A DNA stretch of 43,773 nucleotides from Patescibacteria group bacterium (lineage in GTDB: Bacteria > Patescibacteriota > Patescibacteriia > Patescibacteriales > UBA12075), in assembly GCA_022705905.1 (NCBI GenBank), contig JAKJDO010000005.1:1-43773 (forward strand), given 5' to 3'. Shown here in pieces: positions 22,278 through 26,704 of the stretch (position 1 is its first letter; each line of letters opens with the position of its first letter). Below the pieces are notes generated by a model. That model did not search any database. It worked only from the letters and a program-made list of their open reading frames with translations, and had not been told where the DNA came from. The translations under genes were made by a program, and so were the position numbers.

Positions 22278-22306
22278 AAAAAGCGTCAAAAGGTTGACGT
22301 TTTTTT
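22278..22306 (+). terminator. Intrinsic terminator
   Basis: AAAAAGCGTCAA / TTGACGTTTTTT hairpin with U tract. Confidence 0.7.
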
Positions 22307-22453
22307 GTTGGTTTTTTGGAGTGGGGAATTTCTAAAAAGTTATCCACTGTTTTACGATTTTTCTTGATAAAAAAGGGGTTGTCTTTTACATAAAAAATGT
22401 TATTCTAATAATGTATTAAAAAATTAATTTAAAATAAGCGAAACCTCGAGGTC

Positions 22454-22508
22454 TTGACATTACTATATATAGTGGTATAATAGAAGTATGCTATACTAGA
22501 TGTTGTAT
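22454..22508 (+). promoter_or_regulatory. nrdR-nrdD-nrdG promoter overlapped by two NrdR boxes
   Basis: TTGACA (22454)-16 bp-TATAAT (22476), with a TG extension. Box 1 ttaCTATATATAGtgg (22460-22475) fills the spacer; box 2 ataCTAGATGTTGtat (22493-22508) lies 33 bp downstream. Both fit the acaCwAtATaTwGtgt consensus. Confidence 0.8.
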
Positions 22509-22669
22509 TATACCATCAGAGCGGCGCTGAAAGTAGCGCAAAACACCTTTATTTGGCCCCTTCTACACCCTTATGCTACGTGTAATGAAATGAATAGGTG
22601 TTTTTTTATTTGTCAGGGCAAATTTAGCCCCTAAATGCGGTTTTAAACCGTAAATAGTACTCTAAAGCT

Positions 22670-23140
22670 ATGAAATGTCCGGTTTGCCATTATCAAGACA
22701 CTAAAGTAGTGGATTCGCGCGTGGCTACAGACGGCTCGTCTATTAGAAGGCGACGAGAATGTCTAAAGTGCGGCTTTCGTTTTTCAACTTATGAGGAGAT
22801 AGAAATACTGGATTTAACCGTTATTAAGCGAGACGGCAGTAAGGAAGTTTATGATAAGGATAAATTAGTGCGAGGATTAAAGAAGGCTTTAGAAAAAAGA
22901 CCGATTACTGAGGAAAAATTTAAGCAATTAGTCAATTCCGTAGAAAGAGATATTCAGGCCTTGCGTAAAAACGAGATTACTTCCAACCAAATTGGCCAGA
23001 TCGTGATGAAATACTTAAGGAAGGTGGATCAGGTGGCCTATATCCGTTTTGCCAGCGTTTATCAGTCTTTCAAGGATTTGCAGACTTTTCAAAAGGAATT
23101 GGATAAGCTAACTGCCGGGAAGAAAAAAGCTAAAAAATAA
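22670..23140 (+). CDS. nrdR: Transcriptional repressor NrdR
   Basis: MKCPVC..TKVVDSR..IRRRRECLKCGFRFSTYE zinc ribbon + ATP cone + DQVAYIRFASVY. Confidence 0.98.
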   Translation: MKCPVCHYQDTKVVDSRVATDGSSIRRRRECLKCGFRFSTYEEIEILDLTVIKRDGSKEVYDKDKLVRGLKKALEKRPITEEKFKQLVNSVERDIQALRKNEITSNQIGQIVMKYLRKVDQVAYIRFASVYQSFKDLQTFQKELDKLTAGKKKAKK

Positions 23141-23159
23141 AATTTTATATAAAAAACCC

Positions 23160-25274
23160 ATGCCCCAAGAAAAGATAACTCAAATTAGAAAAAGAAATGG
23201 TCAGATCACTGATTTTAATCAGGAAAAGATCACTACCGCTATTTACAAGGCAACGGAAGCGATAGGTAAGGCTGATAAATACTTAGCCGCCAAGCTGAGT
23301 GAGCAGGTCGTAGAAGCGTTAAACGAAAAATTCCATGCTCGCAGCATTCCGGCCGTAGAAGAAATTCAGGATATAGTTGAAGAAGTTTTAATCGTTAATA
23401 AACAGATTAAAACCGCCAAGTCATATATCCTTTATCGTGACAACCGCGCCCGTTTACGCGAAATGGAATCCATGATTAATTCTAACGATATCATGGAAGA
23501 TTATTTGAAACAGTCGGATTGGCGAGTCAAGGAAAATTCTAACATGAGTTTTAGTTTACAGGGTTTAAATAATCACCTAGCTTCAATAATCTCTTCTAAT
23601 TATTGGTTGAATAAAGTTTATACCGCTAATATCCGTGACGCTCATCATAACGGTGATTTGCACATTCATGATTTACAGCTTCTTGCGCCCTATTGCGCCG
23701 GCTGGGATTTAAAAGATTTATTAATGCGCGGTTTTGGCGGCGTTAGTGGTAAGATCGATTCAAAACCACCAAAGCATTTCCGTACCGCCCTTGGTCAAAT
23801 TATTAATTTTTTCTATACACTACAAGGAGAAGTAGCCGGCGCCGAAGCTTTTTCCAGCTTTGATACTTATTTGGCGCCCTTTATTCGTTATGACAATTTA
23901 ACCTATAAAGAAGTTAAACAATGTATTCAGGAATTTTTATTCAATATTAACGTGCCGACCCGCGTTGGCTTCCAAACCCCCTTTACCAACATTACGATGG
24001 ACTTAGTTCCGCCTTCAATTATTGCCAATGAAAATGTTATTATTGGCGGCGAAGTCAAAGCAGAAAAATATAAAGATTTCCAAAAAGAAATGGATGTTTT
24101 AAATACCGCTTTTGCCGAAGCGATGATGGACGGCGACGCTAAGGGCAGAGTTTTTACTTTTCCAATTCCAACCTATAATATTACGCGCGAATTTGATTGG
24201 GATTCGCCAGTGGCGGCTAAAGTTTTTGAAATGACCGCTAAATACGGCATCCCTTATTTTTCTAATTTTGTTAATTCAGAAATGAAACCGGAAGACGCTC
24301 GTTCTATGTGCTGCCGCTTACGCCTCGATAATAGAGAATTACGAAGACGGGGTGGCGGTCTTTTTGGCGCCAATCCCTTAACTGGTTCAATTGGCGTCGT
24401 GACTTTAAATTTACCGCGCATTGGCTATTTATCAAAAACTAAAGAAGAATTTTTTGAGCGTTTAAATAATTTTATGCAGATTGCTAAGGAAAGCTTGGAA
24501 ACTAAACGTTTGATGCTTGAGAATTTTACGGAGAGCGGTCTTTATCCCTACGCTGCGCACTATCTTTCCAGTGTCAAGGAAAGATTCGGGCGCTATTGGC
24601 AAAATCATTTTTCAACTATCGGCATTATCGGCATGAATGAAGCACTTTTGAATTTTGAGCCAGTGCGCCGCAGCATTGCTGAGCCAGAAGGCAGGAAGTT
24701 TGCTTTGGAGGTTTTAGATTTTATGCGCGAACGCATCATGGATTTTCAAAACACCACTAACAACCTGTATAATTTAGAAGCTACGCCAGCTGAAGGCACA
24801 ACTAGACGGTTGTCTCGTATCGACAAAGATAAATATCCGGATATTATCGTGGCTAACGACGAAGCGGTTAAATCGGGCAAGGCTTCGCCATATTATACTA
24901 ACTCCACTCATTTGCCGGTTAATTATACTGATGATATTTTTGAAGCCTTAGATTTACAAGATGATATCCAGACGAAATATACTGGCGGCACGGTACTGCA
25001 TACTTATTTAGGCGAGGCTTTGCCTTCAGCCGAAGCCGTTAAGAATTTAATCAGAAAGATAGCTTACAATTACCATTTGCCATATTTTACTTTAACTCCG
25101 ACTTTTTCTATCTGTCCGAAACACGGCTATCTGTCAGGTGAACATCATTATTGTCCCAAATGCGATGAAGAATTGGGAATTGTTAAAAAAGATGAATTGC
25201 TCGCCGTTGCCGAAGAAATAGCTGAGCACGAGATGGTTGATACGGAAAGAGAAATAATTAAAGCCCTAGCTTAA
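23160..25274 (+). CDS. nrdD: Anaerobic (class III) ribonucleoside-triphosphate reductase, large part (ATP cone + catalytic barrel + Zn site), lacking the glycyl-radical segment
   Basis: N-terminal ATP cone (IRKRNG..FNQEKI), WRVKENSN, HIHDL, FTFPIPTYN, SMCCRL, GSIGVVTLN, LEATPAE, YTGGTV and CPKHG..YCPKC; there is no RxxGY motif before the TAA. Confidence 0.93.
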   Translation: MPQEKITQIRKRNGQITDFNQEKITTAIYKATEAIGKADKYLAAKLSEQVVEALNEKFHARSIPAVEEIQDIVEEVLIVNKQIKTAKSYILYRDNRARLREMESMINSNDIMEDYLKQSDWRVKENSNMSFSLQGLNNHLASIISSNYWLNKVYTANIRDAHHNGDLHIHDLQLLAPYCAGWDLKDLLMRGFGGVSGKIDSKPPKHFRTALGQIINFFYTLQGEVAGAEAFSSFDTYLAPFIRYDNLTYKEVKQCIQEFLFNINVPTRVGFQTPFTNITMDLVPPSIIANENVIIGGEVKAEKYKDFQKEMDVLNTAFAEAMMDGDAKGRVFTFPIPTYNITREFDWDSPVAAKVFEMTAKYGIPYFSNFVNSEMKPEDARSMCCRLRLDNRELRRRGGGLFGANPLTGSIGVVTLNLPRIGYLSKTKEEFFERLNNFMQIAKESLETKRLMLENFTESGLYPYAAHYLSSVKERFGRYWQNHFSTIGIIGMNEALLNFEPVRRSIAEPEGRKFALEVLDFMRERIMDFQNTTNNLYNLEATPAEGTTRRLSRIDKDKYPDIIVANDEAVKSGKASPYYTNSTHLPVNYTDDIFEALDLQDDIQTKYTGGTVLHTYLGEALPSAEAVKNLIRKIAYNYHLPYFTLTPTFSICPKHGYLSGEHHYCPKCDEELGIVKKDELLAVAEEIAEHEMVDTEREIIKALA

Positions 25275-25311
25275 TAAATTATTCGATATAGTATAAATAA
25301 AAATAAAAAAT

Positions 25312-25452
25312 ATGAGCCCTATTGAAGCCAAAAGAGTACCGTGCGAAGTTTATAGCCGAGTCAATGGTTATTTGCGCCCGGTAAAACAATGGAATGACGC
25401 AAAAGCGGCGGAGTTCGAAAATCGTAAATGTTTTAAGCTGAAAGAAGCTTAA
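25312..25452 (+). CDS. Stand-alone NrdD glycyl-radical domain (46 aa)
   Basis: Manual translation: MSPIEAKRVPCEVYSRVNGYLRPVKQWNDAKAAEFENRKCFKLKEA*. It matches the NrdD C-terminal CEVYSRxxGYLRP..WN..K..EF..R pattern and is below the ORF-track length cutoff. Confidence 0.88.
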   Translation: MSPIEAKRVPCEVYSRVNGYLRPVKQWNDAKAAEFENRKCFKLKEA

Positions 25453-25528
25453 TACGAGGGGGATTTTTAAGAGTTTTTGGGAATCCCAATAGTTTTTCTT
25501 AGAAGTCCCAAACTAACTTAAAAATTCC

Positions 25529-26272
25529 ATGCTAATTGGCGGTTTACAAAAATTTAGTCTTTTAGATTATCCCGGTCACGTTACAGCTATCGTCTTTACT
25601 CAAGGATGCAATTTTCGCTGCCAATTTTGCTACAACCCTATGCTTGTCTGGCCCCCTGAGGTTGGCAAGTTAAAAAATAGTTTTTCGTCAAAAAACGAAG
25701 GAATCAAGAAGGGCCACCCTTTGATAAAGGAGGGTGACCTTTTTGATTTTTTAAAAAGCAGGATGGGTAAACTTGATGGCGTCGTTGTCAGTGGCGGTGA
25801 ACCGACCATTCAGCGCGATTTACCAGAATTTTTAGCCAAAATAAAAGAGTTGGGTTTTAAAATTAAGCTGGATACTAACGGCACGAGCCCCAATATGCTT
25901 AAAAAAGTACTGGCTAAAAAATTAGTTGATTACATCGCCATGGATATTAAAGCGCCGGCAGAAAAATACGAAAAAGTGACTGGCGTAAAGTCAAATTTTT
26001 CAAAAATCAAAGAAAGTATTAAAATAATAAGAGAAAGCGGCCTGCCATATGAGTTTCGCAGTACAACAGTGCCGGGCCTGCATTCAGCTGAAGATATTAG
26101 AAAGATGGGAGAGTTAATTAGGGGCGCGGATAAGTGGTTTTTGCAAATTTTAAAATCAAACACCGATTTAATAAATATCGAATTAGAGAAGGTCAAGCCA
26201 TATACTAAAAAAGAGATGGAAGAATTTAAAAAAATTGGATTAAAATTAGTGAAAGAGTGCAGGGTGAGATAA
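25529..26272 (+). CDS. nrdG: Anaerobic RNR activase (radical SAM)
   Basis: IGGLQKFSLLDYPG, FTQGCNFRCQFCYN (CxxxCxxC), SGGEPT, KLDTNGT, DYIAMDIK and YEFRST motifs. Confidence 0.93.
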   Translation: MLIGGLQKFSLLDYPGHVTAIVFTQGCNFRCQFCYNPMLVWPPEVGKLKNSFSSKNEGIKKGHPLIKEGDLFDFLKSRMGKLDGVVVSGGEPTIQRDLPEFLAKIKELGFKIKLDTNGTSPNMLKKVLAKKLVDYIAMDIKAPAEKYEKVTGVKSNFSKIKESIKIIRESGLPYEFRSTTVPGLHSAEDIRKMGELIRGADKWFLQILKSNTDLINIELEKVKPYTKKEMEEFKKIGLKLVKECRVR

Positions 26273-26285
26273 AAATTAATTTTTA

Positions 26286-26357
26286 TATTGTCATTCCCGC
26301 CGGTCCGCCAGCAGACAAGCGGAAGCGAGGGTTCCCGCCTGGGATGACACAAAAAAT
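26286..26357. repeat. REP-like palindromic element, copy 2
   Basis: TGTCATTCCC ... GGGATGACA terminal inverted repeat with an inner CCGC..GCGG stem; shares ATATTGTC at the left end and the 17-mer GGGATGACACAAAAAAT with the copy at 3213. Confidence 0.7.
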
Positions 26358-26359
26358 TT

Positions 26360-26704
26360 ATGGACGAAGATTTAAAGCAAACTTTGGAGAAGCTTGTCCA
26401 GCTGACCGAAGAAAACAACAAGCTACTTAAAAAGATTAATTTTTTCGTAAACACGCAAAGAATTTGGGGCGCAATAAAAATATTGATTATTGTTGTGCCG
26501 ATAATTTTAGCTTATATTTATTTGCCAAAATGGTTGGCGGGTTTTCAAGCTGATCCTAGCGCACTACTTAGCAATCCGTGGCTAGAAACATACACCCAAG
26601 GTTTAACAGAGCAGATGCTTAAAAATGCCGATGTGAAAAATGTGGATTTAAATAATATTGACCCGGCCAAATTAGAACAATACAAAAAATTACTGACCAA
26701 ATAA
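26360..26704 (+). CDS. Hypothetical single-TM protein
   Basis: N-terminal coiled segment (LEKLVQLTEENNKLL) and one TM helix. Confidence 0.7.
   Translation: MDEDLKQTLEKLVQLTEENNKLLKKINFFVNTQRIWGAIKILIIVVPIILAYIYLPKWLAGFQADPSALLSNPWLETYTQGLTEQMLKNADVKNVDLNNIDPAKLEQYKKLLTK

What the first reader, a model, noticed from the sequence alone, without database searches (positions are those of the whole stretch)
23160..26272. Split class III ribonucleotide reductase: the glycyl-radical segment is a separate 46-aa gene
Seen: NrdD (23160-25274) ends at a double stop TAATAA after its Zn site and a ~30-aa acidic helical tail, with no RxxGY motif. After 37 nt, in a different frame, an unannotated ORF (25312-25452) encodes CEVYSRVNGYLRP..WN..K..EF..R, with the predicted radical Gly codon at 25366-25368. 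nrdG follows. Known: in NrdD the radical Gly sits in this C-terminal segment, and O2 cleaves the protein at that Gly; pyruvate formate-lyase is rescued by the autonomous glycyl-radical 'spare part' GrcA/YfiD. Inference: this is a two-chain RNR with a permanently exchangeable radical subunit, so O2 damage would cost 46 aa rather than about 750 aa. The extra tail, the double stop and a clean ATG argue for an evolved split rather than a sequencing error. The Asn in RVNGY is also atypical.
Basis: partly seen in the sequence, partly recalled or inferred. Interest (0 to 1): 0.82.

Follow-up and report, generated by a model that had tools for sequence, protein, structure and literature searches.

The report
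Two-gene anaerobic ribonucleotide reductase
This tiny bacterium's only enzyme for making DNA building blocks is encoded in two pieces, a 704-residue catalytic body and a separate 46-residue peptide that carries the radical glycine; the layout is real, conserved and transcribed, and I found no paper that describes it.

Summary
nrdD (23160-25274) covers Pfam NRDD positions 1-529 and ends after a complete zinc ribbon and a 36-aa acidic tail. The 46-aa ORF (25312-25452) covers positions 532-562 and holds the RVNGY glycine. nrdG follows.

It is not an artefact. Four independent metagenome assemblies are colinear with the window, with no indel. Metatranscriptome contigs show no splice or edit.

It is an evolved split:
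- 55 of 56 loci from the same order, the window included, have it.
- The gap is 11-216 nt and the frame offsets are 18/19/18.
- 53 peptides start at a conserved ATG (MSPIxxKRQxC), and peptide dN/dS is about 0.18.
- NrdD is the only RNR in this genome.

The cut lies between the zinc ribbon and the glycine loop. The same cut recurs in other Patescibacteria, DPANN archaea, Chloroflexi and Hippea, needing at least 2-6 changes on the tree.

Peptide RNA contigs are deeper than nrdD RNA contigs in 8 of 8 metatranscriptomes, by 1.2-24 fold (median about 6).

The "replaceable radical cartridge" idea stays unproven. Indirect support comes from the RNA excess, unlinked extra peptide genes, lone copies on viral contigs, and stand-alone NrdD-type radical domains in Fur/rubrerythrin/SOD operons.

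The Asn in RVNGY and the double stop are not significant. I found no publication on a split class III RNR.

The parts
22670..23140 (+). nrdR, the transcriptional repressor of RNR genes (Zn ribbon + ATP-cone)
   Evidence: Pfam Zn_ribbon_NrdR and ATP-cone
23160..25274 (+). nrdD body, 704 aa: ATP-cone, catalytic barrel with MCCR finger loop (nt 24306-24317), Zn ribbon and acidic tail. It has no glycyl-radical loop.
   Evidence: Pfam NRDD 1-529/562, E 9e-185. NF006126 scores 1066 bits over profile positions 2-656/684. Motif positions.
25113..25163 (+). Zn ribbon CPKH-x9-CPKC (C652, H655, C665, C668), the last canonical element of the body
   Evidence: Read from the sequence. The T. maritima NrdD Zn site is C-x3-H-x6-C-x2-C and lies between the barrel and the Gly loop (PMC4493059).
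25164..25271 (+). 36-aa acidic tail (net charge -8) ending EREIIKALA. It has no counterpart in fused NrdD.
   Evidence: Alignment of 55 relatives: tails are 10-63 aa, net negative in 49/55, and 32/55 end in ER[DE][LI]IxA[IM]A.
25272..25311 (+). Stops TAA TAA plus an A/T-rich, SD-less spacer (8% GC). The abundant small-ORF RNA probably starts here.
   Evidence: RNA contigs start at 25292-25316 in 8 runs.
25312..25452 (+). 46-aa glycyl-radical peptide ('NrdD tip'). Gly19 codon is at 25366-25368.
   Evidence: Pfam NRDD 532-562/562. 98 clusters of 40-66-aa homologues. Median dN/dS 0.18. In the pseudo-fusion model of a relative, the core is a beta-hairpin plus helix at pLDDT about 82.
25460..25487 (+). 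Terminator-like hairpin followed by a T run, between the peptide gene and nrdG. RNA contigs run through it.
25529..26272 (+). nrdG, the radical-SAM activase
   Evidence: TIGR02495 NrdG2, 213.6 bits against a cut-off of 131
25292..25715 (+). Segment covered by a discrete, deeper RNA contig in 8 metatranscriptomes (peptide ORF plus the 5' part of nrdG)
   Evidence: Contig depth is 3.9-64 here against 2.5-6.8 for the last nrdD contig. DNA depth is flat across the same stretch.
25715..25736 (+). Terminator-like hairpin inside nrdG, where three of the abundant RNA contigs end

Best explanation
This is a working class III (anaerobic) ribonucleotide reductase made of two separately translated chains.

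- The body: the 704-aa NrdD body provides the ATP-cone, the catalytic barrel with the Cys finger loop, and a complete zinc ribbon.
- The peptide: the 46-aa peptide is the canonical C-terminal glycyl-radical loop. The gene is cut at the linker between the zinc ribbon and that loop.
- Expression: the peptide is translated from its own ATG behind an SD-less, A-rich leader. Its RNA is in part separate from, or more stable than, the nrdD RNA.
- Assembly (inferred): the peptide docks non-covalently. Its beta-hairpin with Gly19 sits in the barrel next to Cys384/385, and its WN..K..EF..R helix packs against the barrel. The acidic tail of the body and the basic N-extension of the peptide (MSPIxxKRQ) may help capture.
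- Activation (inferred): NrdG abstracts the Gly19 hydrogen, and catalysis then follows the known pathway.

The peptide is the regular, obligatory radical subunit. It is not an accessory to an enzyme that has its own tip. Because the chain is discontinuous, oxidative scission at Gly19 would spare the body. Whether that is why the split is kept is not shown.
For: Shown:
- The two ORFs give complementary profile matches.
- Four independent metagenome assemblies (2016-2025) have no indel across 24900-25700.
- Eight metatranscriptomes show no joint or indel, and one contig spans 25085-25333 colinearly.
- 55 of 56 loci of the order (26 GTDB families; window included) are split. Gaps are 11-216 nt, frame offsets are 18/19/18, and 53 of the 55 split loci start the peptide at ATG.
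- Peptide dN/dS is about 0.18.
- A clade of 65 NrdD bodies with 99% support is entirely split.
- G000 (99% complete) and 54/61 genomes searched (G000 plus 60 relatives) have no class I/II RNR, so this is the sole RNR.
- nrdG is intact.
- A relative's body and peptide, joined through its in-frame stops, fold as a class III RNR. The peptide core has pLDDT about 82, while the tail and N-extension fall below 50-65.
- Peptide RNA contigs are deeper than nrdD contigs in 8/8 runs, by 1.2-24 fold, while DNA depth is flat.
Against: - There is no protein-level or biochemical evidence. Nobody has shown that a class III RNR works with its glycine loop in trans.
- Docking and activation are inferred from homology and from a pseudo-fused AlphaFold model. 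I could read confidence values for that model, not contacts.
- Contig depth is a poor measure of expression. The ends of the RNA contigs may partly reflect strain SNPs (25655) rather than true transcript ends.
Confidence: 0.87

Rival explanations
1. Replaceable radical cartridge. The split is kept by selection because the peptide is a consumable. It is made in excess, and after O2 cleaves it at Gly19 the fragments leave and a fresh peptide restores the 704-aa body. It would be a built-in version of the GrcA/YfiD spare-part principle.
For: - Peptide RNA is deeper than body RNA in 8/8 metatranscriptomes, with a median of about 6-fold.
- The organism occurs in aerated activated sludge as well as in digesters.
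- Some relatives carry a second, unlinked peptide gene between rsmH and ftsL: G161, G208, G275.
- 53/80 IMG/VR loci carry lone peptide genes with no NrdD body within 3 kb.
- Related stand-alone domains (Zn ribbon plus Gly loop) lie in Fur-family / peroxiredoxin / rubrerythrin / desulfoferrodoxin / SOD operons in 4/4 contexts read.
Against: - All of this is circumstantial, and most of it comes from other genomes. G000 itself has only the one peptide gene.
- An RNA excess may only reflect the stability of a small transcript.
- An earlier follow-up in this scan (e1-909946) reports that pre-set tests of the spare-part reading failed, and priced it at 6/100.
- Split genes are common in reduced CPR/DPANN genomes without any adaptive story.
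Confidence: 0.25
2. Neutral gene fission. The linker between the Zn ribbon and the Gly loop varies in length and tolerates insertions. A stop and a start arose there, the two parts still assemble, and the state is simply inherited. The split brings no benefit.
For: - The spacer between CPxC and CEVYSRV is 3-22 aa in fused homologues. One of them, L114, has a long spacer that resembles the tail joined to the N-extension.
- Tails are very variable, 10-63 aa.
- The split recurs mainly in reduced CPR and DPANN genomes.
Against: - There is no reversion in a clade of 65 members spanning 26 families.
- The N-extension MSPIxxKRQ and, in 32/55, the tail end ER[DE][LI]IxA[IM]A are conserved.
- The peptide has a separate, deeper transcript.
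- The same cut arose or was lost at least 2-6 times.
Confidence: 0.45
3. One polypeptide is restored by recoding or splicing: a programmed frameshift, stop read-through, an intron, or a split intein.
For: Phage nrdD genes are known to carry group I introns. The peptide has a Cys at position 11 that could look like a +1 extein residue.
Against: - Frame offsets are random (18/19/18) and gaps run from 11 to 216 nt.
- There is no Rfam hit in 22300-26600.
- Eight runs show no RNA joint or indel.
- Tail plus N-extension come to about 46 aa. That is far too short for an intein, and no HN motif precedes the Cys.
Confidence: 0.02
4. Assembly or sequencing error, or a decaying pseudogene.
For: None beyond the prior expectation for a broken gene in a MAG.
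Against: - Independent assemblies give the same sequence.
- 55 of 56 loci of the order, including the window, share the layout.
- The peptide is under purifying selection.
- It is the sole RNR and it is transcribed.
Confidence: 0.01

Closest known systems
Canonical single-chain class III RNR NrdD with NrdG (T. maritima 4COI/4U3E, P. copri 8P23, phage T4 1H78; NCBIfam NF006126 / TIGR02487)
   Same: ATP-cone, barrel, MCCR double-Cys finger loop as in T. maritima, C/H/C/C Zn ribbon, RVxGY loop sequence, adjacent nrdG, nrdR control. The fold model matches these structures.
   Different: The glycyl-radical loop is a separate gene product. The body gains an acidic tail of 10-63 aa, and the peptide gains a 10-aa basic N-extension with its own ATG.
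GrcA/YfiD of E. coli and Y06I of phage T4 (autonomous glycyl-radical cofactors, 'spare parts' for pyruvate formate-lyase)
   Same: A small stand-alone protein carries the radical glycine of a glycyl radical enzyme and presumably acts in trans.
   Different: - GrcA is PFL-type (RVSGY) and 127 aa. It backs up an enzyme that has its own radical domain.
- Here the peptide is NrdD-type and 46 aa, lacks the Zn ribbon, and is the only tip the enzyme has.
- A 2026 review says spare parts are known only for formate lyases (PMC13450708).
Split class II RNR NrdJa/NrdJb of Pseudomonas aeruginosa (Crona et al. 2015, cited in PMC9669993), and the homing-endonuclease-split class Ia NrdA of Aeromonas phage Aeh1 (the latter from my own knowledge)
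   Same: An RNR catalytic subunit is encoded by two adjacent genes that reassemble.
   Different: They belong to other RNR classes and are cut at other points. In neither does the small piece carry the radical cofactor.
Small subunits of X-succinate synthases (BSS beta and gamma)
   Same: A glycyl radical enzyme with extra small polypeptides.
   Different: In BSS the radical glycine stays on the large alpha chain.

Membership tests
Class III RNR catalytic subunit NrdD (PF13597, TIGR02487, NF006126) | Ten-stranded barrel domain with the finger-loop cysteine | tested here: met
   Pfam NRDD 1-529/562, E 9e-185. NF006126 1066 bits against a cut-off of 548. MCCR at residues 383-386.
Class III RNR catalytic subunit NrdD (PF13597, TIGR02487, NF006126) | Zn ribbon between the barrel and the Gly loop | tested here: met
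   C652-x2-H655-x9-C665-x2-C668. Compare the C/H/C/C site of T. maritima NrdD.
Class III RNR catalytic subunit NrdD (PF13597, TIGR02487, NF006126) | C-terminal RVxGY glycyl-radical loop on the same polypeptide | tested here: not met
   The body ends at profile position 529/562. The loop (532-562) lies in the separate 46-aa ORF, in another frame.
Class III RNR catalytic subunit NrdD (PF13597, TIGR02487, NF006126) | Cognate radical-SAM activase NrdG | tested here: met
   TIGR02495, 213.6 bits, directly downstream.
Class III RNR catalytic subunit NrdD (PF13597, TIGR02487, NF006126) | Glycyl radical formed and NTP reduced | not testable with these tools
   Needs anaerobic biochemistry and EPR.
GrcA/YfiD-type spare-part protein | Small autonomous protein carrying a GRE radical-glycine loop | tested here: met
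   46-aa ORF with RVNGY. It is conserved and transcribed.
GrcA/YfiD-type spare-part protein | Homology to the PFL C-terminal domain (Pfam Gly_radical PF01228, RVSGY) | tested here: not met
   Only NrdD models hit the peptide.
GrcA/YfiD-type spare-part protein | Coexists with a full-length enzyme whose own radical domain it replaces after O2 cleavage | tested here: not met
   G000 has one body without a tip and one peptide. The peptide is the regular part.
GrcA/YfiD-type spare-part protein | Restores activity to the O2-damaged enzyme | not testable with these tools
   Needs biochemistry.
Intron- or intein-interrupted or recoded nrdD | Self-splicing RNA, intein blocks, or a fixed frame relation that allows recoding | tested here: not met
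   No Rfam hit. No RNA joints. Frame offsets 18/19/18. The insert is too short for an intein.
Split RNR (genes in pieces, as NrdJa/NrdJb) | Two adjacent ORFs that together align end to end with a single-chain homologue | tested here: met
   Body 1-529 plus peptide 532-562 of Pfam NRDD. The fused relative L047 reads CPTCQTK-CEVWSRVMGY across the break.

The most novel reading that the evidence does not exclude
Class III RNR has an undescribed family of trans-acting glycyl-radical modules, and the window's 46-aa peptide is its obligate form. The peptide would be a separately transcribed, over-produced radical cartridge that is replaced after O2 scission.

The same module occurs in three other forms:
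- unlinked second copies of the peptide gene;
- lone genes on viral contigs;
- proteins of about 100 aa (Zn ribbon plus Gly loop) that sit directly behind a Fur/PerR-like regulator and in front of peroxiredoxin, rubrerythrin, superoxide reductase or SOD genes.

These would be the first spare-part proteins for a glycyl radical enzyme other than pyruvate formate-lyase.
Probability: 0.22. Interest if true: 0.85.

Novelty: new variant of a known kind. Interest (0 to 1): 0.62.

Why it matters
In every characterised glycyl radical enzyme the radical glycine sits on the catalytic chain. The field's 2026 review states that spare-part proteins are known only for formate lyases, and that it is undetermined whether others exist.

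A natural class III RNR whose radical loop is always supplied in trans would give several things:
- It would be the first GRE with a detachable cofactor-bearing subunit.
- It would be a minimal 46-residue substrate for studying how the activase NrdG reaches the glycine.
- It would allow a direct test of whether oxygen damage can be repaired by subunit exchange.
- It would warn annotators that 'truncated' nrdD genes in CPR, DPANN and other genomes are not pseudogenes.

In this class, about 64% of the genomes that hold an NrdD-type glycine segment have it in a short separate frame. In most genomes of the window's order this enzyme is the only route to dNTPs, so it also bears on how these ultra-small cells survive in aerated sludge.

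Tried and rejected
- **Fused relatives (my misreading):** I first read 13 relatives as 'fused with an insertion', because the genome search reported open frames of 768-810 aa. My own scan showed stop codons in all of them. The tool had chained same-frame matches across stops.
- **Stop positions:** The stop positions were partly wrong where a tblastn match ran through a stop. They are corrected. The conclusion did not change.
- **Intervening RNA element:** The Rfam scan of 22300-26600 found nothing.
- **Split intein:** Rejected. The insert is too short and there is no HN motif before the Cys.
- **Peptide Cys11 as fourth Zn ligand:** Rejected. The body already has C/H/C/C, as in T. maritima NrdD, and some fused homologues have T or A at that position.
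- **Tail as a decayed copy of the Gly loop:** The tail often starts D-E-E-I-G-Y, and fused L047 ends ..VIYEIA. This is suggestive but not convincing, so I did not pursue it.
- **RNA runs for two relatives (L077, L086):** None are served, so I could not test whether the RNA excess is general.
- **Literature:** Seven full-text searches or readings found no description of a split class III RNR. Subscription-only papers were not searched.
- **Earlier scan notes by sequence:** No match.
Full report
**1. What is in the window**

- nrdD runs from 23160 to 25274 and gives 704 aa. It has an ATP-cone and the catalytic domain with the double-cysteine finger loop MCCR (residues 383-386).
- It also has a zinc ribbon, C652-x2-H655-x9-C665-x2-C668 (nt 25113-25163).
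- After the ribbon come 36 further residues, DEELGIVKKDELLAVAEEIAEHEMVDTEREIIKALA (net charge -8), then TAA TAA.
- A 37-nt spacer with 8% GC follows. An ATG at 25312, in another frame, opens a 46-codon ORF: MSPIEAKRVPCEVYSRVNGYLRPVKQWNDAKAAEFENRKCFKLKEA. Gly19 is encoded at 25366-25368.
- nrdG follows at 25529-26272 (TIGR02495 NrdG2, 214 bits). nrdR precedes at 22670-23140.

The two ORFs are exactly complementary on the family profiles. The body matches Pfam NRDD positions 1-529 of 562 and the peptide matches 532-562. On NCBIfam NF006126 they match 2-656 and 650-683 of 684. These are the only two NRDD matches in the genome. The genome is 0.95 Mb and 99% complete.

**2. Not an artefact and not repaired at the RNA level**

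Logan contigs from four metagenomes cover 24900-25700 as single pieces. The four come from different studies (activated sludge 2016, wastewater 2024, digester 2024, biogas 2025). They show no inserted or missing letters. The only differences are SNPs at 24950-24986 and 25655.

Eight metatranscriptomes from at least five studies show no joint and no indel. One RNA contig spans 25085-25333, crossing the end of nrdD, the spacer and the start of the small ORF colinearly with the DNA. Rfam finds no intron or other RNA family in 22300-26600.

**3. The split is conserved and under selection**

A Pfam search of 60 relatives from the same GTDB order (26 families, 49 genera) found NrdD in 58 of the 61 genomes searched, G000 included. 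Nearly all showed two separate matches, 1-~530 and ~530-562.

I fetched 55 of these loci and scanned them myself. Counting the window, 55 of 56 loci are split.

| Feature across the 55 split loci (window included) | Result |
|---|---|
| Gap between body stop and peptide start | 11-216 nt, median 94 |
| Frame offset body to peptide (0/1/2) | 18 / 19 / 18 |
| Peptide starts at ATG | 53 of 55 |
| Peptide consensus | MSPIxxKRQxCEVYSRVxG[YW]..P...WN.[AG]K..E[FYH]..R |
| Gene order | nrdD, peptide, nrdG |
| Leader before the peptide ATG | A-rich, no Shine-Dalgarno in 48 of 56 |
| Pairwise dN/dS of the peptide | median 0.18, with mean dS 1.7 |

The random frame relation rules out frameshifting or read-through and implies independent initiation. 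The dN/dS value shows a protein under purifying selection.

Only G028 has a fused gene. It is a distant NrdD (54% identity) on a long branch, so it looks like a replacement rather than a re-fusion.

In the protein database the peptide has 98 clusters of 40-66-aa homologues. Where they are named, the names are Candidatus Falkowbacteria, Patescibacteria or 'anaerobic ribonucleoside-triphosphate reductase'.

**4. It must work**

A search for the class I/II large-subunit family PF02867 finds nothing in G000, and nothing in 54 of the 61 genomes searched (G000 plus 60 relatives). The 14 control genomes behave as expected. The split NrdD is therefore the only RNR in most of these organisms.

**5. Where the cut lies**

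The fused relative reads ...CPSHGYLKGEVETCPTC-QTK-CEVWSRVMGY.... The window reads ...CPKHGYLSGEHHYCPKC-DEE[tail]stop / MSPIEAKRVP-CEVYSRVNGY....

[quoted passage not shown] The cut is thus at the linker between ribbon and loop, and the body keeps all four ligands.

In fused homologues this linker is 3-22 aa long, so it tolerates insertions.

The added pieces are not random.
- Tails are net negative in 49/55 loci, with a mean charge of -5.2.
- 32/55 tails end in ER[DE][LI]IxA[IM]A.
- The peptide's N-extension is net positive in 44/55.

This suggests an electrostatic capture device. That is inference.

**6. Model**

I took a relative whose peptide lies in frame 0 (L077, 75% identical). Its two stops were read as residues, and it was aligned with 34 natural fused homologues.

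AlphaFold2 gives mean pLDDT 80 and pTM 0.74.
- The body is confident.
- The peptide core forms the beta-hairpin plus helix expected for a glycyl-radical loop, at pLDDT about 82.
- The tail, the read-through linker and the N-extension are mostly below 65, and below 50 at 670-681 and 713-736.

Foldseek places the model with the class III RNRs of P. copri, S. thermophilus, T. maritima and phage T4. The tool gives confidence values but not coordinates, so I could not read contacts.

**7. Expression**

In all eight metatranscriptomes a discrete contig starts at 25292-25316, just upstream of the ATG, and runs to 25618-25803. Its depth is 38, 42, 64, 3.9, 19, 8.8, 15 and 7.5. The last nrdD contig of the same runs has depth 2.9, 6.8, 2.7, 3.2, 3.4, 2.5, 2.6 and 2.7. 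The ratios are 1.2-24 with a median of about 6. DNA depth is flat across the same stretch.

The peptide RNA is therefore more abundant than the body RNA, either through its own promoter in the A/T-rich spacer or through differential stability.

Caveats apply. Contig depth is crude. Contig ends near 25620-25640 probably reflect the SNP at 25655. The 3' limit near 25715 coincides with a hairpin inside nrdG and is unexplained.

**8. Wider distribution**

In a sample of 301 genomes of the same class, 109 have the peptide sequence. By my count of frame lengths:

| State in the 109 genomes | Number |
|---|---|
| Short frame (47-135 aa) | about 70 |
| Long frame (fused) | about 37 |
| Uncertain | 1 |
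| Only a stand-alone domain | 1 |

Five of the short-frame cases were verified by sequence.

In named GTDB genomes the same cut occurs in several other groups:
- other Patescibacteria (Saccharibacteria, Dojkabacteria);
- DPANN and other archaea (Micrarchaeota, Woesearchaeota, Nanobdellota, Aenigmatarchaeota, Thermoplasmata, a Methanosarcinales MAG);
- Chloroflexi;
- Hippea.

A maximum-likelihood tree of 112 bodies has one 99%-supported clade of 65 members that is entirely split and contains the window. Other split lineages are interleaved with fused ones. The tree needs at least 6 changes of state, and at least 2 are forced by well-supported branches. Shuffled labels give a mean of 31. The tree was built by a quick search, and two long branches meet, so the exact count is soft.

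**9. Related free modules (outside the window)**

- Three genomes with a split locus also carry a second, unlinked peptide gene between rsmH and ftsL.
- A family of proteins of about 100 aa consists of a CxxC..CxxC ribbon plus the NrdD-type loop. It has 641 clusters.
- In all four contexts I read, this gene overlaps the end of a Fur-family regulator gene. Downstream lie rubrerythrin (L166); peroxiredoxin, rubrerythrin and desulfoferrodoxin (L168); or a cupin, a rubrerythrin-like protein and Fe-SOD (L169/L170).
- One genome has this protein beside a fused NrdD. A congener has it with no NrdD at all.
- Of 80 IMG/VR loci with the peptide motif, 53 have a lone small gene and no NrdD body within 3 kb. 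I only spot-checked that these contigs look viral (RNase H, HNH).

These observations make trans action of the loop plausible. They also link some family members to oxidative stress. They do not show what the window's peptide does beyond being the enzyme's tip.

**10. Literature**

Full-text searches and readings found no split class III RNR. [quoted passage not shown] Known precedents are the split class II NrdJa/NrdJb, cited in PMC9669993, and GrcA/YfiD.

Earlier notes of this scan report the same layout in other genomes, and they too found no paper. One later check priced the spare-part reading low. I treat these notes as leads, not as evidence.

**11. Verdict**

Whether the split is kept because it makes the radical part replaceable (about 0.25), or is a tolerated neutral fission (about 0.45), is open and experimentally testable. 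The remainder covers other or mixed reasons.

The Asn in RVNGY and the double stop carry no weight.

Noticed in passing
L166:2469-3713; L168:2652-5308; L169/L170:2658-4711: Stand-alone proteins of 96-101 aa (CxxC..CxxC zinc ribbon plus NrdD-type glycine loop; 641 clusters in the protein database). The gene overlaps the end of a Fur-family regulator gene and precedes peroxiredoxin, rubrerythrin, desulfoferrodoxin or Fe-SOD genes. This is an oxidative-stress operon context in 4 of 4 loci read.
   Followed up: partly
L157, L159, L163 (genomes G161, G208, G275): A second, unlinked copy of the ~50-aa glycyl-radical peptide gene lies between rsmH and an ftsL-like gene. These genomes also have the split nrdD-peptide-nrdG locus.
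   Followed up: partly
G234 (whole genome): A 0.6-Mb, 98%-complete genome has the stand-alone radical-domain protein but no NrdD body at all. Its congener G196 has both a fused NrdD and the stand-alone protein.
   Followed up: no
L171-L250 (IMG/VR contigs): 53 of 80 loci carry a lone small gene with the NrdD-type glycine motif and no NrdD body within 3 kb. One 90-kb contig carries two copies. I only spot-checked that the contigs are viral.
   Followed up: partly
window 25292-25803 and 25850-26385: The abundant RNA contig runs through the intergenic hairpin (25460-25487) into nrdG. In three runs it ends at about 25715, where a second hairpin lies inside nrdG (25715-25736). No RNA contig covers the rest of nrdG in any of 8 runs. 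This may be attenuation or processing inside nrdG.
   Followed up: no
window 25245-25271 and the tails of L022-L075: 32 of 55 body tails end in ER[DE][LI]IxA[IM]A at the very C-terminus. The one fused relative (L047) has an extension after its glycine domain that ends ..VIYEIA. This may be a conserved C-terminal docking motif of unknown partner.
   Followed up: no
L114 (Nanoarchaeota MAG): A fused NrdD with a 22-aa spacer (CPTCDKENNYKEGDAESALKRTKCEVYSRV) that looks like tail and N-extension joined. It could be an intermediate or a re-fused form. The ORF is 1061 aa and probably holds an intein elsewhere.
   Followed up: no
L104 (Thermoguttaceae MAG), L125 (deltaproteobacterial MAG): Lone glycine-loop genes outside CPR and DPANN, with no nrdD or nrdG within 3.5 kb. 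The open frames are 65 aa (L104) and 155 aa with a zinc ribbon (L125).
   Followed up: no
G022, G030, G057: Three relatives in the order have no detectable RNR of any class. They may depend on deoxynucleoside salvage, or the gene may lie in an unassembled part.
   Followed up: no
L077-L079, L083, L085, L088 record titles: Several TPA MAG records titled 'uncultured Gammaproteobacteria bacterium' carry NrdD loci identical to genomes of the window's (Falkowbacteria-like) order. The organism labels look wrong.
   Followed up: no
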